64,000 bases of DNA from an uncultured Gammaproteobacteria bacterium (lineage in GTDB: Bacteria; Pseudomonadota; Gammaproteobacteria; SZUA-229), in the NCBI GenBank assembly GCA_963711255.1, contig CAVQDO010000019.1:83022-147021 (forward strand), read 5' to 3'. Each line of letters begins with the position of its first letter. The first letter of the stretch is position 1. The notes under the pieces were generated by a model. It did not search any database. It worked only from the letters and a program-made list of their open reading frames with translations, and had not been told where the DNA came from. Positions 12,909-57,487 of the stretch are shown here, in pieces. The position numbers and the translations under genes were made by a program.

Positions 12909-15900
12909 ATGAACCTTCACCTGAAACTGTTTATACCTACATTATTGCTACTCGCGGCGATCGCGACAACCATTCATTTTTACTGGCTGCCTGATTATCT
13001 TACCCTGGAAATCGAAGAACAGGAAAAATATGAACTCAGCTTTGCCGACTTACTGGGCACGGCGCTGGTTCCCGACCTGCTCAATAACGACCTCGCCATA
13101 ACACACAGCACACTCGACCAGGTGCTGGAAAATCGTAAATACTGGTATGCCGTTAAACTGTTCGACCGCGATAACCAGCTCATCTATCCACTGACCGAAC
13201 CGCAACTGCCAGCAGATATTGAACTCAAAACACTGGATCACGAAATCATATTCGATGGCAACCGCATCGCCAGCTTCACCGTCTGGATTGACATCAACGC
13301 TGCGAGTTCTCAGCGTGTTGATCATATCTATCATCTCGAACATCTATTGCTGATCACACTGCTGGTGGCTGCGCTATTAGCTACACTGTTGCAGGACAGG
13401 TGGATCAGGTTTCCGTTGCGGCAACTGGCCAATTTTGCCAGCGATATTGCACGCGGCAAATATGATTCTCGCATGGAATACCAGTCCCATGATGAAGTCG
13501 GAAAACTGGTAGCCGCTTTTAACAGCATGCGCCGACAAATACGGCAGCGTGAAGCCGACCTGGTAGAAAGCCAGGCACGCCACAAGGCAGTCATTGAAAA
13601 CGCCGTTGACGGCATTATCTCGATTGACGCACACGGCAAGGTGCAAAGCTTTAATCCTGCGGCAGAAAAAATCTTCGGTTACAACCATAACGAAGTAAAC
13701 GGAAAGAATATCAAAATGCTGATGCCGCAGCCTTACCAGCGAGAACACGACGGCTACCTGTACAACTATATTGCAACAGGCAATAAAAAAGTTATCGACA
13801 TCGGGCGCGAAGTAAAAGGTCAGCGCAAAGACGGCTCAACCTTCCCGCTGGATCTGGCCGTTAGTGAAGTTGACCTGGGAGACCGCCGCCTGTTTATCGG
13901 CATGATACGCGACATCACTGAGAGAAAATTTGCCGAGCAGGAAGCAGCACGTTATTCCAATGCGCTGGAACAGCTGCACATTATTACGTCAGATATAGAA
14001 ACTGATTTCAAGCAGAAAATTCACAATGTTCTCGAACTTGGCCGCCAGCTGCTTGATATGCCGCTGGCAATCATCAGCCATATCCAGGCAGAGCGTTATA
14101 TCGTCGAACATGTTGCCAGCCCCGATGGTGCGCCTCCACCCGGCACCGAATTCGTGCTGGGTGAAACCTATTGCTGTCACACGCTGGCCACCAATACAGC
14201 CACCGGCTTTGAGCATGCAGGGGAAAGCGAAATAAACAACCATCCCTGTTATAAAAACTTCGGTCTTGAAGCTTACATCGGTGCGCCGGTTATTGTTAAC
14301 GGCGCGCTTTATGGCACACTGAATTTTTCCAGCCCGAAACCGCATGCCGGTAAATTCAGTAGCGTCGACTATAACCTGATCAGGTTATTTGCCCAATGGG
14401 TAAGCAGCGAAATTACCCGCGTTCAGGCGGAGACAGAACTCTATAATACAACAGCACTTCGGCAAGCCATTCTGGACAGCGCCAATTTCAGTATTATTTC
14501 AACAGACGTAAACGGCATAATACGTCTATTTAATCATGGCGCCGAGCGCATGCTCGGCTACAGTGCCGAAGAACTCATCGACAAGGAAAGTCCGGCGATA
14601 TTGCACGACATTGAAGAAGTCGTATCAAGGGCAAAAGAACTTACAGTAGAACTAGGACAAAGCATCGAACCAGGCTTTGACGTTTTTATCAGCAAAGCAA
14701 AAGCCGGAATTGCGGATGAAAGGGAGTGGACATACATACGCAAAGATAAAACACGCTTACCGGTAATGCTTTCTATCACCGCAGTGCATGACTCCAGTGG
14801 CAACATCGTCGGCTACCTTGGCATCGGCAGCGACCTGACCGAGCGCAAAAAAATCGATTTGATGAAAAGCGAATTTGTTTCTACCGTCAGCCATGAATTG
14901 CGCACCCCGCTTACTTCCATACGCGGTGCATTAAGCCTGGTGCTTGGCAAAGGTGCAGCCGACCTGCCGCCCAAGCTGCAACGCATGCTGGAAACCGCCA
15001 ACCGCAACAGTGAACGCCTGACATTTCTGATTAACGATATCCTTGATCTTGAAAAAATAAATGCCGGGAAACTCGACCTTCGCCTCGAAGCCGTAAACCT
15101 GGCCGCACTGGCAAAAAGAGCCGTTGATGAAAACGAAGGTTATGCGCTATCACACAACGTCAAGCTAAAACTTTCATTTGAGTCTGATGAGACGACGACA
15201 GTACGCGTGGACGAACATCGCCTGTTACAGGTTTTTGCCAACCTTATTTCCAATGCCGTCAAATACTCACCTGAAGAAGATACTGTTGACGTCGTAGTAA
15301 AAAGAACCAACGGTCGGGTACGCGTTTCTGTCATCGATAAAGGCGCAGGTATACCCGTTGAGTTCCGTCCGCGTATTTTTGGCCGTTTCGCTCAGGCCGA
15401 CAGTTCAGACACGCGCGAGAAAGGCGGTACCGGCCTTGGCCTGACCATCACAAAAGCTATCATTGAACAGCTTGGCGGCAGCATCGACTTCAACAGTGAA
15501 CCCGGCGAAGGCGCAGAGTTTTATTTCGAACTCTCCGCATGGGACCAGACCGTTGAAAACACACAGCTGGATAAATCACTGCCCAAAGTACTGGTCTGTG
15601 AAGACGACCCGGACGTTGCTTATGTACTGGTCAACCTTCTGGAGCAGGAAGGGCTTTCCGGTGACATTGCTGCAACCGCCAGCAGTGCTCGAGATTTGCT
15701 GCAAAAAAACAACTACAGCCTGTTACTGCTTGACCTGGTTCTGCCAGATGCAAACGGCCTGGAACTTGTACGTGATATTCGTAAGGCAGAAAGCACCAGG
15801 AAATTGCCCATTATCGTTATTTCCGGTCGTGCCAACGAAGGACGTAAAGAATTCAACGGAGATGCCGTTACTGTAGCAGACTGGCTGCAAAAACCGATTG

Positions 15901-16298
15901 ACCGTGACCGGCTGTCGCATGCGGTTGCCGATGCAATACATGGCAATCACCGCCCGAATATTCTACATATCGAAGATGATCTTGATGTTATACAGGTATC
16001 CCAGGTATTGTTTGAAGATGAGGCGGACTTTGAATATGCAACCTCACTGGAAGAGGCCCATAAAAAACTGGCTAAAAAAGTATATGACCTGGTCATTGTT
16101 GATATCTCATTACCTGACGGCTCGGGGCTGGATCTACTGGACGAAATCGGCCGCGACTGCCCAATCGTGCTTTTTTCCGGCCAGGAGACCCAGGCTGAAA
16201 TCAGCGATAAGGTGAATGCAACATTAACCAAGTCACTGACCAGCAATGATGAGCTGATGAGCACAGTAAAACGATTATTGAAACACAACATCCAATAA
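12909..16298 (+). CDS. Hybrid sensor histidine kinase (TM-periplasmic-TM-HAMP-PAS-GAF-PAS-HisKA-HATPase-REC-REC)
   Basis: H-box SHELRTPLTSIRGAL, HATPase G-boxes (GGTGLGL), and two C-terminal receiver domains with conserved Asp (LLLDLVLPD, VIVDISLPD). Confidence 0.85.
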   Translation: MNLHLKLFIPTLLLLAAIATTIHFYWLPDYLTLEIEEQEKYELSFADLLGTALVPDLLNNDLAITHSTLDQVLENRKYWYAVKLFDRDNQLIYPLTEPQLPADIELKTLDHEIIFDGNRIASFTVWIDINAASSQRVDHIYHLEHLLLITLLVAALLATLLQDRWIRFPLRQLANFASDIARGKYDSRMEYQSHDEVGKLVAAFNSMRRQIRQREADLVESQARHKAVIENAVDGIISIDAHGKVQSFNPAAEKIFGYNHNEVNGKNIKMLMPQPYQREHDGYLYNYIATGNKKVIDIGREVKGQRKDGSTFPLDLAVSEVDLGDRRLFIGMIRDITERKFAEQEAARYSNALEQLHIITSDIETDFKQKIHNVLELGRQLLDMPLAIISHIQAERYIVEHVASPDGAPPPGTEFVLGETYCCHTLATNTATGFEHAGESEINNHPCYKNFGLEAYIGAPVIVNGALYGTLNFSSPKPHAGKFSSVDYNLIRLFAQWVSSEITRVQAETELYNTTALRQAILDSANFSIISTDVNGIIRLFNHGAERMLGYSAEELIDKESPAILHDIEEVVSRAKELTVELGQSIEPGFDVFISKAKAGIADEREWTYIRKDKTRLPVMLSITAVHDSSGNIVGYLGIGSDLTERKKIDLMKSEFVSTVSHELRTPLTSIRGALSLVLGKGAADLPPKLQRMLETANRNSERLTFLINDILDLEKINAGKLDLRLEAVNLAALAKRAVDENEGYALSHNVKLKLSFESDETTTVRVDEHRLLQVFANLISNAVKYSPEEDTVDVVVKRTNGRVRVSVIDKGAGIPVEFRPRIFGRFAQADSSDTREKGGTGLGLTITKAIIEQLGGSIDFNSEPGEGAEFYFELSAWDQTVENTQLDKSLPKVLVCEDDPDVAYVLVNLLEQEGLSGDIAATASSARDLLQKNNYSLLLLDLVLPDANGLELVRDIRKAESTRKLPIIVISGRANEGRKEFNGDAVTVADWLQKPIDRDRLSHAVADAIHGNHRPNILHIEDDLDVIQVSQVLFEDEADFEYATSLEEAHKKLAKKVYDLVIVDISLPDGSGLDLLDEIGRDCPIVLFSGQETQAEISDKVNATLTKSLTSNDELMSTVKRLLKHNIQ

Positions 16299-16311
16299 AC
16301 GAGATGCGAAT

Positions 16312-16680
16312 ATGAAATTACTCTACGTAGAAGACGAAGCCGATATCCGCGAAATTGCCGAATTCGCCCTCGAAGACGAAGGCTTCGATATCCTTTTTTG
16401 CGAGTCTGGTGAAAAGGCAGTGGAACAGGCGGCTGATTTTCAACCGGAAGCCATCCTGCTGGATGTTATGATGCCCGGCATGGATGGGCCCACCACACTA
16501 CAAAACCTGCGAACCCTGCCTGGACTGGAATCCACACCGGTCATCTTTCTTACCGCAAAGGTTCAGCCCAATGAAATTCAAAACTTTATTTCACTCGGCG
16601 CCATCGACGTCATCCCGAAACCCTTTGAACCGATGACACTGGCTGAACAGATTCGCGAAATACTGAGCCGTAGCCGCTAA
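16312..16680 (+). CDS. Single-domain response regulator (CheY-like receiver)
   Basis: 122 aa with DE...D...K receiver signature (LLDVMMPGMDG). Confidence 0.85.
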   Translation: MKLLYVEDEADIREIAEFALEDEGFDILFCESGEKAVEQAADFQPEAILLDVMMPGMDGPTTLQNLRTLPGLESTPVIFLTAKVQPNEIQNFISLGAIDVIPKPFEPMTLAEQIREILSRSR

Positions 16681-18311
16681 TGAGCACCAGCAAACAGGAA
16701 AAATTACGCAAGCTACAGGAAAAGTACATATCCCAGCTGCCAGGAAAACTCAATGCACTAAACCGGGTATGGCTGCATTCGCTGCACCATAATGACATTG
16801 ACGGCTTAAATCAGCTTCGCCAGCTGGCACATAACCTTGCCGGATCTGCAGGCACATTCGGTTTTCCTGCCGTCAGCGTCGAAGCCAGGAACCTTGAAGA
16901 CATACTGAGAAACCTGAGTGATATACAGGATTTAAACAACATCGTCGAAGAAAATATTGCCGATGCGCTGCAACGGATTGTCAGCTACGTTGAACTCGGA
17001 CCAGAGAATGTTGAAAGTCTTACACCGCTTGATCATGAAAAAGCTTACAGCACTGCTCAGTTTGACCGTCTGATTTACGTTATTGAAGATGACGACCTGC
17101 TGGCCCGCGAAATTGCCACCCAGCTTTATTACTTTGATTACGAAGTGGAAACCTTCTCCTCCACCGCGCGAGCAATGGAAGCAATAAAACTGCGCATGCC
17201 AACAGCTATGATTATTGATATACAACTGCCGGACGGCGATCTCGCCGGCCCGGAATTTGCGAGAGTATTTAACGAATTTTCTTCCACCGCCATACCTTCC
17301 ATATTTATTTCTTCACGTGATGACTGGCATGCACGCCTTGCCGCAGTGCAGGCCAATGGCAGCGCATACCTGACAAAACCGATAGACTTCAACGACCTGC
17401 TCGAACGCCTGGAAATGCTGACGGTTAGACAAATGCCAGAACCGCTCAAAATACTTATTGTTGATGACATGGAAGTACTGGCAGAACACTATGCCACTGT
17501 CTTAAGAAACGCCAACATGGAAGTGAAAACGGTTACCGATATCAATGACATGCTTGAAGCCTTAAGTGACTTTAAGCCGGAACTAATCTTAATGGATATC
17601 TACATGCCCCAGTGTTCCGGCCTTGATGCCGCAAAAATAATACGGCAAAAAGACGAACTGCTTGGCGTACCCATCGTTTTCCTGTCAACCGAAGCCGATC
17701 CTCTGCAGCATATTTCAGCCATGGAGCTGGGCGGCGACGACTTCCTGCAAAAACCCATTACCGATGACCGTCTGCTTGTTTCGGTTAGAACTCGCGCCCA
17801 GCGCTTTCGCCGTCTGCGCAGCCATATGCTTTGCGATGGACTCACCGGCCTGCTCAACCACGTTGCCGTCAGAACCCACCTCGAATCAGAAATTTCACGC
17901 GCACAACGCCAGAACGAAGCGCTTAGTTTCGCCATGATTGATATCGACAACTTCAAACAGGTAAATGATACCTACGGCCACCCTGTCGGTGACCGGGTAA
18001 TAAAAAGCATTGCGCGCATGCTAAAAAAACGTTTACGCAAATCAGATCTCATCGGCCGATATGGCGGCGAAGAGTTTGCCATCATACTGCCGGAAACCGA
18101 GTTAAATACTGCAAAAAAATTACTGGATGATGTACGGCAGAATTTTTCACAAATTACCCAGCAGGATCACGAAACCCAGTTTTACTGCACGCTCAGTGCA
18201 GGCGTAACGCAGCTATCAAAAAGCGACTCCCTGGACAGCCTGGTTAACACCGCCGATGAAGCACTCTACGAAGCAAAACATGCCGGTCGCAATCAGGTGT
18301 GTATAAAATGA
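16680..18311 (+). CDS. Hpt-REC-REC-GGDEF diguanylate cyclase
   Basis: N-terminal Hpt-like helix bundle (HNLAGSAGTFG), two receiver domains, C-terminal GGDEF with an intact GGEEF active site (RYGGEEFAI); start overlaps the upstream stop (TAATG). Confidence 0.85.
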   Translation: MSTSKQEKLRKLQEKYISQLPGKLNALNRVWLHSLHHNDIDGLNQLRQLAHNLAGSAGTFGFPAVSVEARNLEDILRNLSDIQDLNNIVEENIADALQRIVSYVELGPENVESLTPLDHEKAYSTAQFDRLIYVIEDDDLLAREIATQLYYFDYEVETFSSTARAMEAIKLRMPTAMIIDIQLPDGDLAGPEFARVFNEFSSTAIPSIFISSRDDWHARLAAVQANGSAYLTKPIDFNDLLERLEMLTVRQMPEPLKILIVDDMEVLAEHYATVLRNANMEVKTVTDINDMLEALSDFKPELILMDIYMPQCSGLDAAKIIRQKDELLGVPIVFLSTEADPLQHISAMELGGDDFLQKPITDDRLLVSVRTRAQRFRRLRSHMLCDGLTGLLNHVAVRTHLESEISRAQRQNEALSFAMIDIDNFKQVNDTYGHPVGDRVIKSIARMLKKRLRKSDLIGRYGGEEFAIILPETELNTAKKLLDDVRQNFSQITQQDHETQFYCTLSAGVTQLSKSDSLDSLVNTADEALYEAKHAGRNQVCIK

Positions 18312-19552
18312 AACCCGCGGCCATACCGGATAATGAAGAACAACGAATTCATCGATTAAATGAGCTGGGCATTCTTGATACGCTAGAAGAACAGGCCTAT
18401 GATGACCTTACTCAGCTGGCGGCAAAAATATGTGATACACCAATCGCGCTGGTGAGCCTGGTAGATACTGATCGACAATGGTTCAAATCCCACCATGGCC
18501 TGGACGCGCACGAAACTCCCCGCGATATCGCATTCTGCGCGCACGCTATTCTAGATGACCATGTATTTGTTGTAGAGGATTCCAGCAAAGACGAGCGCTT
18601 TCATGATAATCCATTAGCGACAGGCCATCCAGATGTAAAGTTCTACGCGGGCGCACCCCTGATAATGAGCGACAATCTCAGGCTCGGAACATTATGCGTT
18701 ATAGCAAATGAGCCTCGAACGATTTCCGATACTCAAAAGGCGGCCCTTGAGGCCCTGGCACGACAAACCATAAGCCAGATGGAGCTTCGCCTTAAAGTAA
18801 AAGAACTGCAAAGTCTGGACAACGCCAAGGACGAATTCATTTCCATGGTTAGTCACGAACTAAGGACACCGCTAACATCCATTACCGGCTCGCTTTCCCT
18901 GCTTTCAAACAACAAAGTTGGCCCATTAAGCAGTAAACAACAGAATATGGTGGCCATCGCTGCACGCAACAGTGACCGGCTTCTCTGCATCGTTAATGAC
19001 ATACTCGACCATGCAAAAATGGAAGCTGGTAAATTTGAAATCAGCCGTAAACCACATAAAGTTTTTGACCTACTTGAAAAAGCACTGGAACTAAATCAGC
19101 CCTATTGTGAAAAATGTAACTGCGAAATAATTCTGAAATTTAACGATGCGGATAAAGACAGGATAATTGAGTGCGATGAAAACCGCCTGTTGCAGGTGTT
19201 AAGCAATCTTATTTCTAACGCGGCGAAAGTTTCCAGCAATAAAGATATCATAGAGCTATCTCTTGTTATAGATAGCGACAAGGCACGTTTTGAAGTTACC
19301 GATCACGGACCAGGAATATCAAAAGAACAACAGAAGCACCTTTTCCAACGGTTCAAACAAATTGAAACCTCGGGAAACCAGAAAATGCCCGGTACAGGCC
19401 TTGGCCTCAGGATCAGCAAACATATTGTAGAACTTCACGATGGCCAGATCGATTTTGAATCATTACCCGGCGATTACACTAAATTTTATTTCACCATTAC
19501 ACTTAAGAAAATAAAACACGACACTCATCCGGATCGAAACTGCCGCCAGTGA
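18308..19552 (+). CDS. Cytoplasmic GAF-domain histidine kinase
   Basis: GAF-like N-terminus, H-box SHELRTPLTSITGSL, HATPase motifs (GTGLGL); ATGA overlap with the upstream gene. Confidence 0.8.
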   Translation: MKPAAIPDNEEQRIHRLNELGILDTLEEQAYDDLTQLAAKICDTPIALVSLVDTDRQWFKSHHGLDAHETPRDIAFCAHAILDDHVFVVEDSSKDERFHDNPLATGHPDVKFYAGAPLIMSDNLRLGTLCVIANEPRTISDTQKAALEALARQTISQMELRLKVKELQSLDNAKDEFISMVSHELRTPLTSITGSLSLLSNNKVGPLSSKQQNMVAIAARNSDRLLCIVNDILDHAKMEAGKFEISRKPHKVFDLLEKALELNQPYCEKCNCEIILKFNDADKDRIIECDENRLLQVLSNLISNAAKVSSNKDIIELSLVIDSDKARFEVTDHGPGISKEQQKHLFQRFKQIETSGNQKMPGTGLGLRISKHIVELHDGQIDFESLPGDYTKFYFTITLKKIKHDTHPDRNCRQ

Positions 19553-33477: not shown

Positions 33478-34207
33478 TTTGTTTTGTCTTTTGGTATTAA
33501 TATTTTCTGTTGTTTGCTTACTTTGGCATTGCGGTTCTCGCACCGCGGGCGAGTTACTCTTTTGCTACAGCCCAAAAGAGTAACCAGAAAAGGCCGCCGC
33601 GAACTCGATAGCCCCGGGTGAAGCGTCCGGGGAACCTGAATTTGAGGGTATCTGCTCTATTGGCGTTTGTGTTTTACGGAAATAATTATTGCTTACTTTG
33701 GCCCGAGCCGCCCCGATACGCCGTCCGGGCGTAGCGTGGCTAAATCCGCCGTCCATGGCGGATTTGCTCTACGTGTTGGCAAATTCAGCTATCGAAGGCG
33801 GGAGAGTCAAAGTCAAAAAACAGAGTCAATAGCACCAGCAGGAACACAGCAAAAAACATGGCGCGCGGCGCCATAGCTGGAGAAGCGTTTGTTTCGTTTC
33901 TTGTTTTTCTTTGTTTTTCTCCCCTTTTGTTTGCTGACTTTGGGGGCATTGGTAGAGCAAATCCGCCATGGACGGCGGATTTAGTGATGCTGCGCCTGGA
34001 CGGCGCATCAGCACGGGCTCGTAGGCAATGCGCCCAAAGTCAGGTACCCCGAGTGTTTTTCTCGGGGCAAACAAGTCGGGGCGGCATTCTTTCTGGTTAC
34101 TTTTCTTTTGCTGCAGAAAGAAAAGTAACTCGCCCGCGGTGCGAGAACCGCAAGACCTAAGTAAGCAAACAACAGTAAATATTAACGCCAACAACAAATA
34201 AAAAACG
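33478..34207. repeat. About 730 bp nested quasi-palindromic non-coding element filling the convergent tauE/pyrE intergenic gap
   Basis: Outer arm 33495-33565 is the reverse complement of 34105-34190. Inner arm 33700-33783 is the reverse complement of 33940-34040. A perfect 33-nt pair ctaaatccgccgtccatggcggatttgctctac lies at 33740-33772 and 33952-33984. A central hairpin atggcgc-gcg-gcgccat lies at 33858-33874. Confidence 0.85.
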
Positions 34208-48812: not shown

Positions 48813-48992
48813 TTAATGCTGTACTTCTTCTTTTTCCAGCGTTTCCAGACGATCATTTAAGATCATATAATCACCACCAGTCTGAAAACGTACAACAGAA
48901 AAACCATGATTGCTAACGCGTTTCACCTCAACAATCTGGCCAGTACTTGCAATTTTTGCTTGTCCACCCTTTTGTAGTCGTTTAACTTCCAT
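48813..48992 (-). CDS. Small conserved protein (59 aa), paralog of 61968..62174
   Basis: AAGGGGA RBS; protein MEVKRLQKGGQAKIASTGQIVEVKRVSNHGFSVVRFQTGGDYMI... shares GQIVE(L/V)KRVSNHG.S.V.F.TGGDY with the ORF at 61968..62174; not in the ORF track (below 60 aa). Confidence 0.5.
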   Translation of the reverse strand: MEVKRLQKGGQAKIASTGQIVEVKRVSNHGFSVVRFQTGGDYMILNDRLETLEKEEVQH

Positions 48993-49084: not shown

Positions 49085-49288
49085 TCATTTAACGCGCACC
49101 AATGTCGATACCCAGGGCAGATTTATTGCCTTTTTCCCCAGACGAACACTTTTTCCAACCTCATTTTCGTACCAGCTGCAGTGCGACAAATTAGGCTCAA
49201 CCTGAAATCCCCACCAGGTTCCGTCTTTATCCTGCGCTATCCAGCACACCCAGGCTGGAAATTCGTTAAAATCAAAATCCGCATTCAT
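49085..49288 (-). CDS. Hypothetical small Trp-rich protein
   Basis: 67 aa ORF divergent from greB; weak RBS. Confidence 0.3.
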   Translation of the reverse strand: MNADFDFNEFPAWVCWIAQDKDGTWWGFQVEPNLSHCSWYENEVGKSVRLGKKAINLPWVSTLVRVK

Positions 49289-49835: not shown

Positions 49836-49870
49836 TAATTACCAGAAATGTGGATTATTTCTCGCATAAA

Positions 49871-49896
49871 AAAACCCTCATGAAGAGGGTTTTTTG
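49871..49896 (+). terminator. Rho-independent terminator of greB
   Basis: aaaaccctc-atgaa-gagggtttttt. Confidence 0.7.
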
Positions 49897-49971
49897 TTTA
49901 CAACCAGTGATACACGGTTCGGCTATGCACGGCCGATGCATGCAGAGCACCGGACCGAACTTACCCTACTA

Positions 49972-50403
49972 CTAGTAGCCGTATTGTTGGCGTGGAGCGT
50001 AGTATCCTGGTGGTGGACCGTATGGAGATGGTGCATTATTCGCCGGTGCGTTATTTGCAGGTGCTTGTTGCGCGGGTGCTTGTTGTGCAGGCGCAGGTGC
50101 ATAACCCTGAGGTGGCGCGTAATAACCTGGAGGCGGACCGTACCCTGGACCTGGGCCATAGCCATACCCTGGACCTGGACCATAACCGTAACCCGGGCCA
50201 GGACCGTAACCATAACCTGGACCATAGTAATCATCGTCATCATCAAACGCATCTTCCATTTCTTCCATCCAGTAACGTGGATCCCATTCGTCATAAGGGT
50301 TCCAGTCATTACCGCCCCAGCTGTCATTACCAAAGAATGCATAGCTGCTTGTTGCCGTTAGCAATAAACTCATTGCTATCGCTAATCGTACGATTGCTCT
50401 CAT
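49972..50403 (-). CDS. Secreted low-complexity Gly/Pro/Tyr-rich repeat protein
   Basis: Signal peptide MRAIVRLAIAMSLLLTATSSYA with a GGAGA RBS, then GYGYGPGPGY repeats and APAQQAPANNAP repeats; the DNA repeats create ORFs on both strands. Confidence 0.55.
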   Translation of the reverse strand: MRAIVRLAIAMSLLLTATSSYAFFGNDSWGGNDWNPYDEWDPRYWMEEMEDAFDDDDDYYGPGYGYGPGPGYGYGPGPGYGYGPGPGYGPPPGYYAPPQGYAPAPAQQAPAQQAPANNAPANNAPSPYGPPPGYYAPRQQYGY

Positions 50404-50595
50404 TATCTTCTCCATCATCAGGAATAATTGTTCTACCGCTGTCATTCTAAGACAGCACCCACCTTGCTTAAATGATCTGCGTCAATATTCCGCATTTCTT
50501 CATTAAGTTTAAAATTGCAACGTTTTCAACGACAACCACAAGGACGTGTATCGTTTATTTCTTTTTTTCCATGCTATCCAGAGCATCACCAAGAT

Positions 50596-54785: not shown

Positions 54786-56807
54786 TTAGCTCACCTGCTG
54801 CCACTCACGCCAGTCAGAATGGTTTTGCGCAATATGAAACAGGGCGGCGATCACATTACTGTCGTAGCGTGTATCAGCCTCTGACATAAGAATTTCAAGC
54901 ACTTCTTTAATAGGCTTACCTGATCGATAGGCCCTGGCACTGGTCATTGCAACAAAAGCATTGGCAACCGACAAGATCCGGGATTCCTGTAATATATCAT
55001 CGCCAGTAACCCCATTCGGGTAACCACTACCATCCAGGCTTTCATTCTTCTGTTCCACAATCTTAATCACCGGTCCGTCGAAGTCCAGATCTTTGAGTAT
55101 ATCGACGCTATAGTTAATATTTTTACGCAGCATCAATTCTTCTTCTTTGGTCAAAGGATCAACCATGGTTAGCATTTCAGCTGGAATATATAGCTTTCCA
55201 ATATTTGCCAGTAACGCTGCCATCGCTAGCGTATCAATACGTTGCTTGGGCAAACCCATCGCCGCTGCAACGGCAACCGCAACTTCACGCGTTCTACCCG
55301 AATGATTTATACAATGCGGGTCATGTTTATCAATAAGCTGTGCAAGCGTGGTAATAACGCCTTCCATCAAACGGTTATGCCTGCCCTGCGCATCTTTTAT
55401 TTCTGTTATGTCATGCATAACATACAGGTGTGACTGGTTGTAATCTGGATGCTTTAAAGCTATCACTGACACATGATAGTCATTGCGCTTATCTTTAAAT
55501 TCAAGGCGCATTTCTTTGTTGCGCACATTCGCCTCATCGTCATTCGGTTTTATCGAAAGCAGCTTATCGGTGATCTCTTTATTAAACACATGATTTAAAG
55601 ACTTGCCACGAACATCCGCATTATCAATAGCGAATGACTTCGCTAATGCATCATTGATAAATACCAGCTTACATTTATGATCTATTAAAAATATATGATC
55701 GTTAATACTATCGCCTATAGCGTTTAATAACTCTGCCCTGGCTTTCAAACGACGCGTTGCTTTTTGCAAATGTAAACTAGTTGCATGCCGCCATATCGCA
55801 ATAAAACTGATTGTTACAACAAATACAACCAGCAAAAACACAATCAGAATAAAATTTTGATGTGCTGACGATTCCGCCATCGCTTCGCCGATATCTATTT
55901 TTTGCACCAGCAGCATATCGGTATTTCGCAGGTTTCTTGCCGTTGCCAGCACCTCTGTCTGCCGATAATCTTTCAAACTGGAAAATTCACCTACCCTTGC
56001 AGCCACAACAGATGCCGCACTGCTGGATCGTGCCTGTTTATGAAACACATTAAAACCATGCTTCAACGGGCTAAGATAATTAATACTGTTTTCATCGAGC
56101 TTAACCAGTAGTGTTTCTTCGCTACTGGTCGATATCCATTCCTTCAACAGTAATTGATACAGACTGTTCTCCGGATTAATAACAGCAACCACTGCGCCCT
56201 TATAATCACCGGAACCAAGCGATTGAACCGAACTTACGGGCACCACAATAATTAAACGCGGCTGGCTGCCGCCATTATCTGCCGCACCAAAATCACGTAT
56301 ATCAGAAATAACGATTTTCTGATTTTCCATGGCATGGGCATATGCCTTGTTTACTTCATCGTTATCGGGGAAATATCTTGTTGCCAGCAAAATACTGCTG
56401 CCATTAAAAACCGCGATGCCGTCATTTATACCATTTACAACTTCATTATTAATTTTATTAATTGGCGTAAAAACATTTGCATAATCTGCTGTCGCATTTA
56501 GCAGGTTTTTCAAATGACCCAGTTGACCACGACTGGTTTCATCAGCGGGCACATCGTTGAAATGAGACTGGCTAACAAAAATCTGCAACAGCGGATTATT
56601 CGCCAGGGAACTTAAAACATCCAGCTGCGCATCAAACCAGTCTTCGACAGAAGACTGTTGTGACTCAGCCATGATGGCCAGGCGCGCCTGCCAGTCATTC
56701 AGATCTCGCTGCTTTTCAGCAGACACATATTTAAATACCAGCCAGGTACTGCCGCCAATAAATAATAACAGTAAAATAAATGCAATAAGCGCCGGTTTAT
56801 TCTTCAC
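54786..56807 (-). CDS. Membrane sensor HD-GYP c-di-GMP phosphodiesterase (TM-periplasmic ~300 aa-TM-PAS-HD-GYP)
   Basis: HD motif (KHDPHCINHSGR) and GYP motif (LDGSGYPNG); two TM segments flank a large periplasmic domain. Confidence 0.8.
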   Translation of the reverse strand: MKNKPALIAFILLLLFIGGSTWLVFKYVSAEKQRDLNDWQARLAIMAESQQSSVEDWFDAQLDVLSSLANNPLLQIFVSQSHFNDVPADETSRGQLGHLKNLLNATADYANVFTPINKINNEVVNGINDGIAVFNGSSILLATRYFPDNDEVNKAYAHAMENQKIVISDIRDFGAADNGGSQPRLIIVVPVSSVQSLGSGDYKGAVVAVINPENSLYQLLLKEWISTSSEETLLVKLDENSINYLSPLKHGFNVFHKQARSSSAASVVAARVGEFSSLKDYRQTEVLATARNLRNTDMLLVQKIDIGEAMAESSAHQNFILIVFLLVVFVVTISFIAIWRHATSLHLQKATRRLKARAELLNAIGDSINDHIFLIDHKCKLVFINDALAKSFAIDNADVRGKSLNHVFNKEITDKLLSIKPNDDEANVRNKEMRLEFKDKRNDYHVSVIALKHPDYNQSHLYVMHDITEIKDAQGRHNRLMEGVITTLAQLIDKHDPHCINHSGRTREVAVAVAAAMGLPKQRIDTLAMAALLANIGKLYIPAEMLTMVDPLTKEEELMLRKNINYSVDILKDLDFDGPVIKIVEQKNESLDGSGYPNGVTGDDILQESRILSVANAFVAMTSARAYRSGKPIKEVLEILMSEADTRYDSNVIAALFHIAQNHSDWREWQQVS

Positions 56808-56845
56808 AATACACCCGTGTAAAACACTCGTTAATATATAAAACG

Positions 56846-57487
56846 CTAATTAGGAACATGCATCCACCAGTTACCTTCATTTACCGAGTAAACAGGCACG
56901 TAATGATAGATATCTAAATGTGATATAACTTCTTCTATCTGATTATCGAGTATAAGGATATCATTCTTATTTTGAATGGCCATTATAGCGTGAGGAATTC
57001 TCAAATTAGTATCCTGAACTACCACCACGCGCATACTTTTTACATCGACACCCAGCCATTTCATCGATAACATTTTAATAATGGCATAATCCTCGCAGTC
57101 ACCATTATTCACCAGAAACTCCTTTGGCGTCGCCCAGTAGTCAACTATCCCGTAATTTTCAATATCCAGAATATATTCCTTTTCATTGGCGTATTTATTT
57201 ACCTGCTTAATTTGCTGTAAAAGCGGAAGCGACTTTATATTTTCCAGAAAGCGCTGCCACTGTCTTAGGTGGCATTGATTAAACTGTGTCGATTGACAGG
57301 ATTTAGAATCGCTCAAATTCAGCACCTGGCGTTCAAGTACCGACAGCCATTGAGGAAACAGCGTTAGATCCTGCTTTTGAATTTCCTGATAACCAAATAA
57401 ACTGGAGGGCGTTGTATTGGCTGACCAGGCGGGGGAATTTGTCAGCAGCAACCATGTAATTATTATAGGGAGCGATTTTTTAGCCAT
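56846..57487 (-). CDS. Periplasmic bacterial transglutaminase-like cysteine proteinase (BTLCP, LapG-like)
   Basis: Signal peptide and the catalytic Cys motif NGDCEDYAIIK, with downstream His and Asp. Confidence 0.7.
   Translation of the reverse strand: MAKKSLPIIITWLLLTNSPAWSANTTPSSLFGYQEIQKQDLTLFPQWLSVLERQVLNLSDSKSCQSTQFNQCHLRQWQRFLENIKSLPLLQQIKQVNKYANEKEYILDIENYGIVDYWATPKEFLVNNGDCEDYAIIKMLSMKWLGVDVKSMRVVVVQDTNLRIPHAIMAIQNKNDILILDNQIEEVISHLDIYHYVPVYSVNEGNWWMHVPN

What the first reader, a model, noticed from the sequence alone, without database searches (positions are those of the whole stretch)
49972..50403. Secreted Gly/Pro/Tyr-rich low-complexity protein encoded by a GC-rich tandem DNA repeat
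After a canonical signal peptide the protein is almost entirely GYGYGPGPGY and APAQQAPANNAP repeats, then PPPGYY, ending in Tyr. The underlying 18-30 bp DNA repeats open long ORFs on both strands. Tyr/Gly/Pro-rich exported proteins are reminiscent of adhesive, cross-linkable or structural matrix proteins and are rarely annotated in bacteria. The repeats could also vary in copy number.
Basis: seen in the sequence. Interest (0 to 1): 0.5.

Follow-up and report, generated by a model that had tools for sequence, protein, structure and literature searches.

The report
Likely sulfur-globule coat protein gene
This is a real, conserved gene for a small exported, acidic, Gly/Tyr/Pro-repeat protein; it belongs to an unmodelled family found only in marine sulfur-oxidising gammaproteobacteria and most likely coats periplasmic sulfur globules, although no member has been tested.

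Summary
Window 49972-50403 (minus strand) encodes a 143-aa protein: a Sec signal peptide, a 39-aa acidic/aromatic module, Gly/Tyr/Pro repeats, an AP(Q/N) tail, ending in Tyr. It is a genuine gene. It has a conserved promoter, a Shine-Dalgarno site and a terminator. The 16-aa core NPYDEWDPRYWMEEME is identical in 65 homologues but written in 47 DNA versions that differ almost only at third codon positions.

The family is small: 105 representatives among 1.84 billion proteins. It has no Pfam or NCBIfam model. It occurs only in gammaproteobacterial MAGs, and those carrying a finer name come from thiotrophic groups (lucinid and Gigantopelta symbionts, Sedimenticolaceae, Chromatiales, Thiotrichaceae). 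Size, composition and module order match canonical sulfur globule proteins (Pfam SGP, PF17228). The central motif is different, and no member hits PF17228.

A sister variant lies beside fccAB in Ca. Thiopontia. A secreted DsrE-like gene neighbours ten family loci.

Best reading (about 0.55): a new branch of sulfur-globule envelope proteins. Repeat copy number does vary between close relatives, always in frame. The window itself carries no sulfur-oxidation genes, and no member has been studied experimentally.

The parts
49972..50403 (-). Coding sequence, 143 codons plus stop. Start is the ATG at 50403.
   Evidence: ORF list and translation. Homologues start at the equivalent MK(x)I. The in-frame ATG at 50445 lies within the predicted -10 hexamer (50444-50449), upstream of the expected transcript start.
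50338..50403 (-). Sec signal peptide, residues 1-22, predicted cleavage SYA|FF.
   Evidence: Sequence features. AF2 helix 2-22 with pLDDT 81-91. Conserved in all homologues.
50302..50337 (-). Trp/Gly/Asn-rich start of the mature protein (FFGNDSWGGNDW), residues 23-34.
   Evidence: Alignment A1. In relatives this segment resembles the start of PF17228 proteins more than composition alone predicts.
50254..50301 (-). Family-defining core NPYDEWDPRYWMEEME, residues 35-50.
   Evidence: 11 of the 16 core residues are invariant and the other 5 nearly invariant (at least 90%) in A1. Identical in 65 copies written in 47 DNA versions; 11 of 16 third positions vary against 1 of 32 first and second positions.
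50242..50280 (-). Predicted amphipathic acidic helix PRYWMEEMEDAFD, residues 42-54.
   Evidence: AF2 helix 42-54, low confidence (pLDDT about 55-60). Hydrophobic moment 0.54, reached by 52 of 5000 shuffles.
50230..50244 (-). Poly-Asp run, residues 54-58.
   Evidence: Sequence. An acidic run is present at this position in the aligned family members.
50101..50229 (-). Gly/Tyr/Pro repeat region, residues 59-101 (GYGYGPGP x3, then GPPPGYY). It contains the 24-bp tandem DNA repeat at 50137-50223.
   Evidence: TRF. Unit type and number vary among homologues. AF2 pLDDT below 50.
50029..50100 (-). Ala/Pro/Gln/Asn tail repeats (APAQQ x2, APANN x2), residues 102-125. It contains the 15-bp tandem repeat at 50030-50064.
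   Evidence: TRF. AP/Q-rich tails are present in most of the family and in PF17228 proteins.
49975..50028 (-). C-terminal SPYGPPPGYYAPRQQYGY, residues 126-143; it repeats the earlier GPPPGYYAP.
   Evidence: Sequence. A ..YGY end is shared by a subset of homologues.
50410..50413 (-). Shine-Dalgarno GGAG, 6 nt before the ATG.
   Evidence: Sequence. GGAG occupies the same position in 16 of 17 aligned upstream regions; L007 has GGGG.
50444..50472 (-). Sigma-70-type promoter: -35 TTTAAG (50472-50467), 17-nt spacer, -10 TAGAAT (50449-50444).
   Evidence: The block TCATTGAAGT..N..CTGnCATAnAAT is conserved in 17 aligned upstream regions; coordinates. The consensus scan missed it because the window's -35 matches only 3 of 6.
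50473..50489 (-). Conserved element upstream of and overlapping the -35 (..TTGAyNCAnrTCA..). Possibly an activator site or UP element.
   Evidence: Alignment of 17 upstream regions. Function is inferred only.
49868..49895 (.). Bidirectional intrinsic terminator hairpin (A7-CCCTC-ATGAA-GAGGG-T6), shared with the convergent greB.
   Evidence: RNA fold of 49860-49975: -43.3 kcal/mol, z = -4.7, with the hairpin followed by a U-run.

Best explanation
The gene encodes a structural protein of the periplasm that most likely forms part of the protein coat around stored elemental sulfur. It would be a sulfur globule protein of a family not yet described.

Proposed mechanism. The gene is transcribed from its own conserved promoter. 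The precursor is exported by Sec and cut after SYA. The 13-kDa mature protein is largely disordered.

Its Gly/Tyr/Pro repeats resemble those of SgpA/SgpB and the GPGGY-type units of elastomeric silks. They would self-associate and lay aromatic rings against hydrophobic sulfur. The acidic module (an amphipathic helix PRYWMEEMEDAF followed by a poly-Asp run) would face the water, keeping globules charged, separate and expandable.

Shown: the gene signals, export signal, composition, family conservation, taxonomic range, repeat variability and gene neighbourhoods.

Inferred: localisation on sulfur globules, the orientation of the two halves, and elasticity.
For: 1. It is a real, selected gene. 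The core is identical in 65 copies with 47 DNA versions that differ at synonymous sites. The promoter and Shine-Dalgarno site are conserved and a terminator is present.

2. The module order matches experimentally supported Sgps of Beggiatoaceae (sequences from the PMC7356093 supplement) and other PF17228 proteins: signal peptide, W/G/N-rich start, one short conserved motif, GY repeats, AP tail.

3. Size and composition also match. Median mature length is 107 vs 94 aa, G 21 vs 25%, Y 16 vs 15%, P 16 vs 12%, W 4 vs 4.5%.

4. Weak sequence links run in both directions. The family profile finds three PF17228 proteins at E 2e-4 to 7e-4 among 1.84 billion. B. alba Sgp finds a variant-B member at 3e-4. 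The pre-motif segments score above composition-preserving shuffles, with z up to 5.1.

5. Taxonomic range. All but one of the 80 genome loci retrieved are gammaproteobacterial or unclassified proteobacterial MAGs; the exception is L010, a 2.5-kb contig binned as Phaeodactylibacter sp.. Those with finer names are lucinid symbionts, Chromatiales and Thiotrichaceae. The protein search adds Sedimenticolaceae and the sulfur-oxidising endosymbiont of Gigantopelta. The sister variant occurs in Ca. Thiopontia autotrophica, which has rDsr (PMC8359478).

6. Sulfur-related neighbours. The variant-B gene lies 560 nt from fccB/fccA, on both contigs shown and, by the tool's count, at 17 similar places. A secreted DsrE-family gene sits about 550-900 nt upstream of the family gene in ten loci.

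7. Paralogy is typical of sgp genes. There are tandem pairs in five loci and two unlinked copies in at least eight MAGs. PMC10386293 reports 1 to 6 sgp genes per genome.

8. A few members already carry the automatic name 'sulfur globule protein CV1' or 'CV2-like'.
Against: No member of the family has been localised, purified or mutated.

The window protein and all 26 aligned members fail Pfam SGP PF17228 even at E <= 10. The central motif is entirely different: acidic NPYDEWDPRYWMEEME-Dn instead of GDGWGDFNMSMSGGGRGYGRG.

The profile-profile match to SGP covers only the signal peptide and the first mature residues. BLAST with composition correction finds nothing. The resemblance could therefore be convergent low complexity.

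The protein is more acidic than SGPs (pI 4.05 vs 5.4) and more hydrophilic (GRAVY -1.23 vs -0.73), whereas A. vinosum Sgps are described as extremely hydrophobic.

The 64-kb window holds no sox, dsr, fcc or sqr gene, and its genome is not in the public collections searched. Thiotrophy of this organism is therefore unproven.

Most loci sit among housekeeping genes.
Confidence: 0.55

Rival explanations
1. A general periplasmic or cell-envelope structural or matrix protein unrelated to sulfur storage. This is the first reader's idea: an adhesive, cross-linkable (dityrosine) or gel-forming disordered protein.
For: High Tyr/Gly/Pro content and predicted disorder. Most loci sit in housekeeping neighbourhoods. 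There are no sulfur-oxidation genes in the window. A LapG/EAL biofilm-type module lies 6 kb away at 54786-57487.
Against: A generic envelope protein would not be expected to be confined to 105 representatives, essentially all from sulfidic-habitat gammaproteobacteria. There is no sorting signal beyond Sec. No peroxidase or cross-linking enzyme is linked. The fccAB and DsrE-like neighbours and the parallel with SGP architecture would be left unexplained.
Confidence: 0.2
2. An acidic cation- or mineral-binding periplasmic protein. The poly-Asp run and Glu-rich helix would bind Ca2+, Fe or Cu, or organise another inclusion; the Gly/Tyr repeats would act as a spacer.
For: A run of five Asp residues next to an acidic helix, and pI 4.05. 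Sub-threshold, composition-driven matches of seven members to the copper-binding octapeptide repeat model PF03991. Some long variant-B relatives have Met-rich tails.
Against: PF03991 scores stay below its gathering cut-off, for example 20.1 bits against a cut-off of 32. No metal-transport or biomineralisation genes are linked. The most conserved residues are aromatic (W, Y), Pro and Arg rather than only carboxylates.
Confidence: 0.1
3. An exported precursor of a smaller bioactive peptide (bacteriocin- or RiPP-like). One homologue was labelled this way by JGI.
For: JGI named P0019 'predicted ribosomally synthesized peptide with SipW-like signal peptide'. The protein is small and secreted.
Against: No modification enzyme, immunity gene or transporter is conserved nearby. 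The repeat-rich body is long and variable in length, unlike a defined peptide core.
Confidence: 0.03
4. Not a gene: a GC-rich tandem DNA repeat that happens to open reading frames on both strands.
For: Four of six frames are open across the repeat.
Against: Only this frame has a signal peptide, a Shine-Dalgarno site and a promoter. The non-repetitive core shows synonymous-only variation across 65 copies. Length changes between relatives are always whole codons.
Confidence: 0.01

Closest known systems
Sulfur globule proteins of the SgpA/SgpB (CV1/CV2) type, Pfam SGP PF17228. This includes the Beggiatoa leptomitoformis envelope protein ALG67575.1 (PMC7356093) and A. vinosum SgpA/SgpB (PMC10386293).
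   Same: Sec signal peptide. Mature size about 10-15 kDa. W/G-rich start directly after the cleavage site. One short conserved motif followed by Gly/Tyr(/Pro/Ala) repeats and an AP-rich tail. Near-identical bulk composition. Stand-alone genes with one to several paralogues. Occurrence in sulfur-storing Gammaproteobacteria. Weak cross-hits in both directions.
   Different: The central motif is NPYDEWDPRYWMEEME plus an Asp run instead of GDGWGDFNMSMSGGGRGYGRG. No match to the PF17228 model. Twice the acidic residue content and a lower pI. More Pro and Gln in the repeats. No experimental link to globules.
The sister variant of the same superfamily, with core NDWPEWTPMYWMEE[MF]. It has at least 425 proteins, for example the Ca. 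Thiopontia autotrophica protein UniRef100_A0A8J6PDX0.
   Same: Same architecture and the same ..P-[RM]-Y-W-M-E-E-[MF] helix followed by an acidic run. Found by the family profile.
   Different: Different residues before the helix (WPEWTPM vs YDEWDPR). Repeats are often Asn- or Met-rich, and some members have long S/P/M/G tails or two to three tandem modules. This variant, not the window's, is the one seen next to fccAB.
SgpC and SgpD of Allochromatium vinosum.
   Same: Periplasmic proteins of the globule envelope made with Sec signal peptides (PMC10386293).
   Different: SgpD was predicted, with caveats noted by the authors, to have a coiled-coil structure, unlike this Gly/Tyr/Pro repeat protein.
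Elastomeric or structural Gly/Tyr/Pro repeat proteins of eukaryotes: GPGGY-type spider silk units, plant glycine-rich cell-wall proteins (Pfam GRP PF07172), cytokeratin end domains.
   Same: Repeat chemistry (GYGPGP, PPPGYY) and predicted disorder. Sgps have been likened to keratins and plant cell-wall proteins. The silk comparison rests on my own knowledge.
   Different: No homology: GRP matches are sub-threshold and compositional. The protein is bacterial, tiny and periplasmic, and has a unique acidic module.

Membership tests
Pfam SGP (PF17228; SgpA/SgpB, CV1/CV2 type) | Scores at or above the PF17228 model's gathering cut-off (26.7 bits). | tested here: not met
   No hit for the window protein or any of the 26 members of A1 at E <= 10. 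Controls: P0213 69.4 bits, P0204 40.2, P0207 31.8, B. alba Sgp 22.7.
Pfam SGP (PF17228; SgpA/SgpB, CV1/CV2 type) | Central motif G-D-[FW]-x-[MFIL]-[SN]-[MFL]-S-G-G-G-R-G-[YW]-G. | tested here: not met
   Absent from the window protein and from all 91 loci held (regex scan). It is replaced by NPYDEWDPRYWMEEME.
Pfam SGP (PF17228; SgpA/SgpB, CV1/CV2 type) | Cleavable Sec signal peptide; small mature protein (about 9-15 kDa). | tested here: met
   Residues 1-22; mature protein 121 aa, 13.1 kDa. Median mature length 107 aa vs 94 aa for SGP.
Pfam SGP (PF17228; SgpA/SgpB, CV1/CV2 type) | Gly/Tyr-rich repeats followed by an Ala/Pro-rich tail. | tested here: met
   G 19%, Y 15.7%, P 20.7%; GYGYGPGP and APAQQ/APANN repeats. 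Family averages compared with SGP.
Pfam SGP (PF17228; SgpA/SgpB, CV1/CV2 type) | Detectable common ancestry outside the low-complexity regions. | tested here: inconclusive
   hhalign probability is 98-99%, but only over 26-39 columns that are mostly signal peptide. Shuffle z-scores for the pre-motif segment are mostly 1-3 and reach 5.1. BLAST finds nothing.
Sulfur globule proteins in the functional sense | Physically part of the sulfur-globule envelope; induced by sulfide or thiosulfate; loss impairs sulfur storage. | not testable with these tools
   Needs proteomics, localisation or genetics. Such data exist for PF17228 members only.
Sulfur globule proteins in the functional sense | Host organism oxidises reduced sulfur and stores it intracellularly. 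| tested here: inconclusive
   Family level: the taxa named belong to thiotrophic groups, and there are fccAB and DsrE-like neighbours. Window level: no sulfur-oxidation gene in 64 kb, and the genome was not found in public data.
Unnamed family defined here (NPYDEWDPRYWMEEME core) | Signal peptide, then W/G/N segment, then the core N-P-Y-D-E-W-D-P-R-Y-W-M-E-E-M-E, then an acidic run, then GY repeats. | tested here: met
   The window protein has the exact core at residues 35-50 and shows 47-76% identity to the 25 aligned homologues in A1.
SgpC / SgpD of A. vinosum | Sequence similarity to Alvin_1325 or Alvin_2515. | not tested
Copper-binding octapeptide repeat (PF03991) and plant glycine-rich protein (PF07172) | Score above the Pfam gathering cut-off. 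| tested here: not met
   The window protein has no hit. Some relatives give sub-threshold, composition-driven matches.

The most novel reading that the evidence does not exclude
The family is not a diverged SGP. It would be an independent invention: a disordered, silk- or resilin-like periplasmic coat protein whose acidic amphipathic helix plus poly-Asp module acts as a built-in surfactant head. That would be a new class of inclusion-coating (or periplasmic gel- or condensate-forming) protein, marking sulfur storage or some other inclusion in uncultured marine thiotrophs that current SGP models miss.
Probability: 0.2. Interest if true: 0.65.

Novelty: new variant of a known kind. Interest (0 to 1): 0.4.

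Why it matters
Sulfur storage in environmental genomes is usually called from the Pfam SGP model or by name transfer from A. vinosum. The window's family has 105 representatives among 1.84 billion proteins. Its sister variant has at least 425 proteins in the 90%-identity cluster search. Neither has a Pfam or NCBIfam model, and most members are labelled hypothetical.

If these proteins coat sulfur globules, sulfur-storage capacity is being under-counted in lucinid and gastropod symbionts, Sedimenticolaceae, the Black Sea BS-GSO2 lineage (Ca. Thiopontia autotrophica) and marine-sediment gammaproteobacteria. A simple marker (the YDEWDPRYWMEEM / WPEWTPMYWMEEM core) would then be available.

The two-part design, an acidic amphipathic head and a variable Gly/Tyr/Pro body, also gives a testable model for how a hydrophobic mineral phase is kept dispersed in the periplasm.

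Tried and rejected
- Exact look-ups of three window proteins in public assemblies found nothing, so the source organism stays unknown.
- Pfam and NCBIfam scans of the protein gave only sub-threshold noise: TrAA12, Kri1, Rv3852 at 16 bits against a cut-off of 100.
- A PDB sequence search with the family profile gave no hit at E <= 1.
- The AF2 model was too poor (mean pLDDT 54, pTM 0.21) to justify a fold search, so none was run.
- The consensus promoter/terminator scan reported nothing. Both signals were found instead by alignment and folding.
- Annotating about 50 window ORFs for sox, dsr, fcc, sqr or apr found none.
- Neighbourhoods of paralogues L002 and L017 contain EgtB/EgtD-like genes, a hydrolase and an OMP, which are not informative.
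- Neighbourhoods of P0080, P0127, P0085, P0067, P0120 and P0279 are housekeeping genes.
- The 4-kb block between trx and the gene in some relatives is MoxR/DUF58/transglutaminase-like and is unrelated.
- Simple motif scans for SoxY, DsrC and RuBisCO in the held loci found nothing.
- The supplements of the SUP05 paper did not contain its Sgp sequences.
- One literature search was wasted on overly generic terms.
- Codon usage is unusual but does not resemble that of mdh, so it gives no clear sign of high expression.
- A. vinosum SgpA-D sequences could not be obtained. Beggiatoaceae Sgps and other PF17228 proteins served as the canonical set.
Full report
**What is there**

Window 49972-50403, on the minus strand, is a 143-codon ORF. 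Its product has these parts:
- a typical Sec signal peptide, MRAIVRLAIAMSLLLTATSSYA, with no lipobox;
- a non-repetitive acidic/aromatic module, FFGNDSWGGNDWNPYDEWDPRYWMEEMEDAFDDDDDYY;
- three GYGYGPGP units and a GPPPGYY;
- an Ala/Pro tail with APAQQ x2 and APANN x2;
- a second GPPPGYYAP, then the end ..QQYGY.

The mature protein is 121 aa, 13.1 kDa and pI 4.05, with P 20.7%, G 19.0%, Y 15.7% and A 10.7%.

Tandem Repeats Finder reports a 24-bp unit x3.6 at 50137-50223 and a 15-bp unit x2.3 at 50030-50064. The repeat half is 58% GC against 45% for the window. Four of the six frames are open for 139-157 aa. That is a side effect of GGN/CCN/TAY/GCN codons.

**It is a real, independently expressed gene**

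A GGAG lies 6 nt before the ATG at 50403.

I aligned 220 nt upstream of this gene and of 16 homologues. This shows a conserved block TCATTGAAGT-N-CTGnCATAnAAT. In the window it reads -35 TTTAAG (50472-50467), a 17-nt spacer and -10 TAGAAT (50449-50444). There is a further conserved element just upstream and a conserved 5' leader. The longer in-frame start at 50445 lies inside the -10 hexamer, so it cannot be used.

Downstream, an A7-CCCTC-loop-GAGGG-T6 hairpin at 49868-49895 serves both this gene and the convergent greB.

The 16-residue core NPYDEWDPRYWMEEME is identical in 65 copies from different genomes. Those copies are written in 47 distinct DNA versions. Eleven of 16 third-codon positions vary, against one of 32 first or second positions.

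The protein is under strong purifying selection, and the repeats are the least conserved part.

**The family**

A word-indexed search of 5.8 billion proteins gave 135 hits. An exhaustive profile search of 1.84 billion representatives gave only 105 at E <= 1e-3. All are 60-330 aa with the same layout.

There are two core variants:
- the window's, NPYDEWDPRYWMEEME;
- a sister variant, NDWPEWTPMYWMEE[MF], with at least 425 proteins.

No Pfam or NCBIfam model covers either, and no relative has a solved structure. AF2 with the family alignment predicts only the signal helix and a low-confidence helix at residues 42-54; everything else is below pLDDT 50. That helix, PRYWMEEMEDAFD, is amphipathic: its hydrophobic moment of 0.54 is reached by 52 of 5000 shuffles.

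**Where it occurs**

A scan of one genome per GTDB species found 85 copies. Of the 80 loci retrieved, all but one are MAGs labelled Gammaproteobacteria, Proteobacteria or Pseudomonadota. The exception, L010, is a 2.5-kb contig binned as Phaeodactylibacter sp..

The finer names in that scan are Thiotrichaceae, Chromatiales and symbionts of the lucinid clams Lucinoma and Taylorina. Source names from the protein search add Sedimenticolaceae and the sulfur-oxidising endosymbiont of Gigantopelta aegis. No cultured isolate appeared. However, the scan patterns matched only the window's variant.

The sister variant occurs in Ca. Thiopontia autotrophica. That is the Black Sea BS-GSO2 lineage, which carries rDsr and Calvin-cycle genes (PMC8359478).

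The window's own proteins are not in the public assemblies searched. The nearest loci (L001, L004, L008, L009) share about 82-89% identity in GreB and malate dehydrogenase. They also share the same gene order: lapG-like, PAS/EAL, CPA1 antiporter, FecR-like, OMP-like, 61-aa protein, cupin, trx, this gene, greB.

**Comparison with known sulfur globule proteins**

Three Beggiatoaceae Sgp sequences are printed in the supplement of PMC7356093. One of them, B. leptomitoformis ALG67575.1, has experimental support: peptides were detected, it is induced ten-fold by thiosulfate, and transposon disruption abolishes sulfur globules and lithotrophic growth. Searching with the B. alba sequence showed that these proteins belong to Pfam SGP, PF17228.

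SGP proteins and the window's family share the module order. Both have a signal peptide ending A-x-A, a W/G/N-rich start, one short conserved motif, Gly/Tyr repeats with Pro/Ala, and an AP-rich tail. They also share size and bulk composition.

| Property | Window's family | PF17228 |
|---|---|---|
| Median mature length | 107 aa | 94 aa |
| Gly | 21% | 25% |
| Tyr | 16% | 15% |
| Pro | 16% | 12% |
| Trp | 4.3% | 4.5% |
| Asp + Glu | 13% | 6% |
| Median pI | 4.05 | 5.4 |

The central motif is entirely different: acidic NPYDEWDPRYWMEEME-Dn against GDGWGDFNMSMSGGGRGYGRG. None of the 26 aligned members reaches PF17228 even at E <= 10, whereas the positive controls do.

Sequence evidence for common descent is suggestive but not decisive:
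- The family profile picks up three PF17228 proteins at E 2e-4 to 7e-4.
- B. alba Sgp picks up a variant-B member at 3e-4.
- The segment before the motif scores above composition-preserving shuffles in most pairs, with z up to 5.1. An example is WGGNGWGNDWNPY.. against WGNNGYGNNWNDW...
- hhalign gives 98-99% probability, but only over 26-39 columns that are largely signal peptide.
- Composition-corrected BLAST finds nothing.

I therefore do not file the protein as a member of PF17228. I treat it as a parallel branch with a swapped central module, or possibly a convergent design.

**Gene neighbourhood**

Most copies are monocistronic among housekeeping genes. There are two exceptions.

In Ca. 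Thiopontia the variant-B gene is 560 nt from fccB and fccA, on both contigs shown and, by the tool's count, at 17 similar places. These encode flavocytochrome c sulfide dehydrogenase, which makes periplasmic sulfur.

In ten loci of the window's variant, a secreted DsrE-family protein (PF02635, 49.9 bits) is encoded about 550-900 nt upstream. In L040, the one locus examined in detail, it diverges from trx and this gene. The window lacks that gene.

The window also has no sox, dsr, fcc or sqr gene among about 50 ORFs annotated.

Paralogy fits what is reported for sgp genes. There are tandem pairs in L001, L028, L030, L044 and L049, and two unlinked copies in at least eight MAGs. PMC10386293 reports one to six sgp genes per genome.

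**Repeat variability**

Relatives with 90-100% identical N-terminal halves differ by whole repeat units, always in frame:
- L004 vs L080: 82 vs 72 residues of tail;
- L007 vs L038: five vs seven GPPPGY units;
- the two L001 copies: four vs six PPPGYG units.

A few database copies (L008, L050, P0010) are frameshifted inside the repeats. These may be assembly errors or real slippage.

**Most likely mechanism**

The precursor is exported by Sec and cleaved. The disordered Gly/Tyr/Pro body self-associates and lies on hydrophobic sulfur. The acidic amphipathic helix and Asp run face the periplasm, giving the globule a charged, expandable coat.

The gene signals, export signal, composition, conservation, range and neighbourhoods are shown. 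The location on globules and the orientation of the two halves are inferred. I put this at about 0.55.

Rivals:
- a sulfur-unrelated periplasmic matrix or adhesive protein (0.2);
- an acidic metal- or mineral-binding protein (0.1);
- a peptide precursor (0.03);
- a non-coding repeat (0.01; refuted).

**Novelty and verdict**

A handful of members already carry automatic names such as 'sulfur globule protein CV1' or 'CV2-like'. One of these is evidently bacterial contamination in the Priapulus caudatus assembly. The idea is therefore not wholly new.

Even so, the family has no model, and I found no description of it in the papers I searched and no experimental data on any member. Its defining module differs from every characterised Sgp I could compare. 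I rate it a new variant of a known kind, with moderate interest (0.4). It would matter mainly as a missing marker for sulfur storage in uncultured marine thiotrophs, and as a clear two-part design for coating a hydrophobic inclusion.

Noticed in passing
window 33669-33796 (-) and 33928-34049 (+): Two matches to the TwoAYGGAY RNA motif (Rfam RF01731; 53 and 69.5 bits, gathering score 43), arranged divergently in one intergenic region.
   Followed up: no
window 48813-48992 (-) and 49085-49288 (-): Two small ORFs (59 and 67 aa) beside greB are strongly conserved in 24 and 20 related loci, with up to 95% and 78% identity. Neither has a Pfam match.
   Followed up: partly
window 50473-50489 (-) and 50425-50439 (-): Besides the -35 and -10 hexamers, an element overlapping the -35 (TTGAyNCAnrTCA) and a leader motif (GTTCGAAAATTA-like) are conserved upstream of the gene in 17 loci. 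They may be regulator binding sites.
   Followed up: partly
window 49972-50403: Codon choice departs from the other window genes: GGT 65% vs 31%, CCA 56% vs 22%, GCA 61% vs 30%, CAA 86% vs 32%. This is unexplained and does not mirror mdh.
   Followed up: partly
L004 5876-9829 (also L009, L034, L041, L042): Some close relatives carry a 4-kb block between trx and the gene: a MoxR-type ATPase, a DUF58-like protein and a transglutaminase-like membrane protein (assignments by inspection of the translations). The window and L001 lack it.
   Followed up: partly
L001 9965-10393 and 10596-11027: The nearest relative has a tandem duplicate of the gene that differs mainly by two PPPGYG units. The window has a single copy.
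   Followed up: yes
L040 8994-9554 (-) and nine other loci (L011, L026, L030, L032, L045, L049, L053, L073, L074): A secreted DsrE-family protein (PF02635) is encoded about 550-900 nt upstream of the family gene; in L040 it diverges from trx and the gene. It is absent from the window.
   Followed up: yes
L086 and L087 10869-12872: In Ca. Thiopontia autotrophica the sister-variant gene lies 560 nt from fccB/fccA, which encode flavocytochrome c sulfide dehydrogenase.
   Followed up: yes
proteins P0145, P0153, P0167, P0175, P0188, P0190, P0196, P0199, P0205, P0209; also P0143, P0173: Long variant-B relatives (200-332 aa) have S/P/M/G-rich tails (..GMPGMSPMS..), most ending in PFR, PRF or RRF. P0143 and P0173 hold two to three tandem copies of the WPE[WF]T[PS]MYWMEEF module.
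   Followed up: no
protein P0302 (XP_014680428.1): 'Sulfur globule protein CV2-like' of the animal Priapulus caudatus is a variant-B member on a 1.2-kb contig. It is almost certainly bacterial contamination of that assembly.
   Followed up: no
window 54786-57487 (-): A LapG-like cysteine protease next to a PAS/EAL c-di-GMP phosphodiesterase-type protein suggests a Lap-type biofilm switch. GGDEF and hybrid kinase genes lie at 12909-19552.
   Followed up: no
L008, L050, protein P0010: Copies of the gene with frameshifted repeat regions (C-termini such as ..HLNMLQHHNLNM.. or ..LWLWWLWPGLW..). These are either slippage or long-read assembly errors.
   Followed up: no
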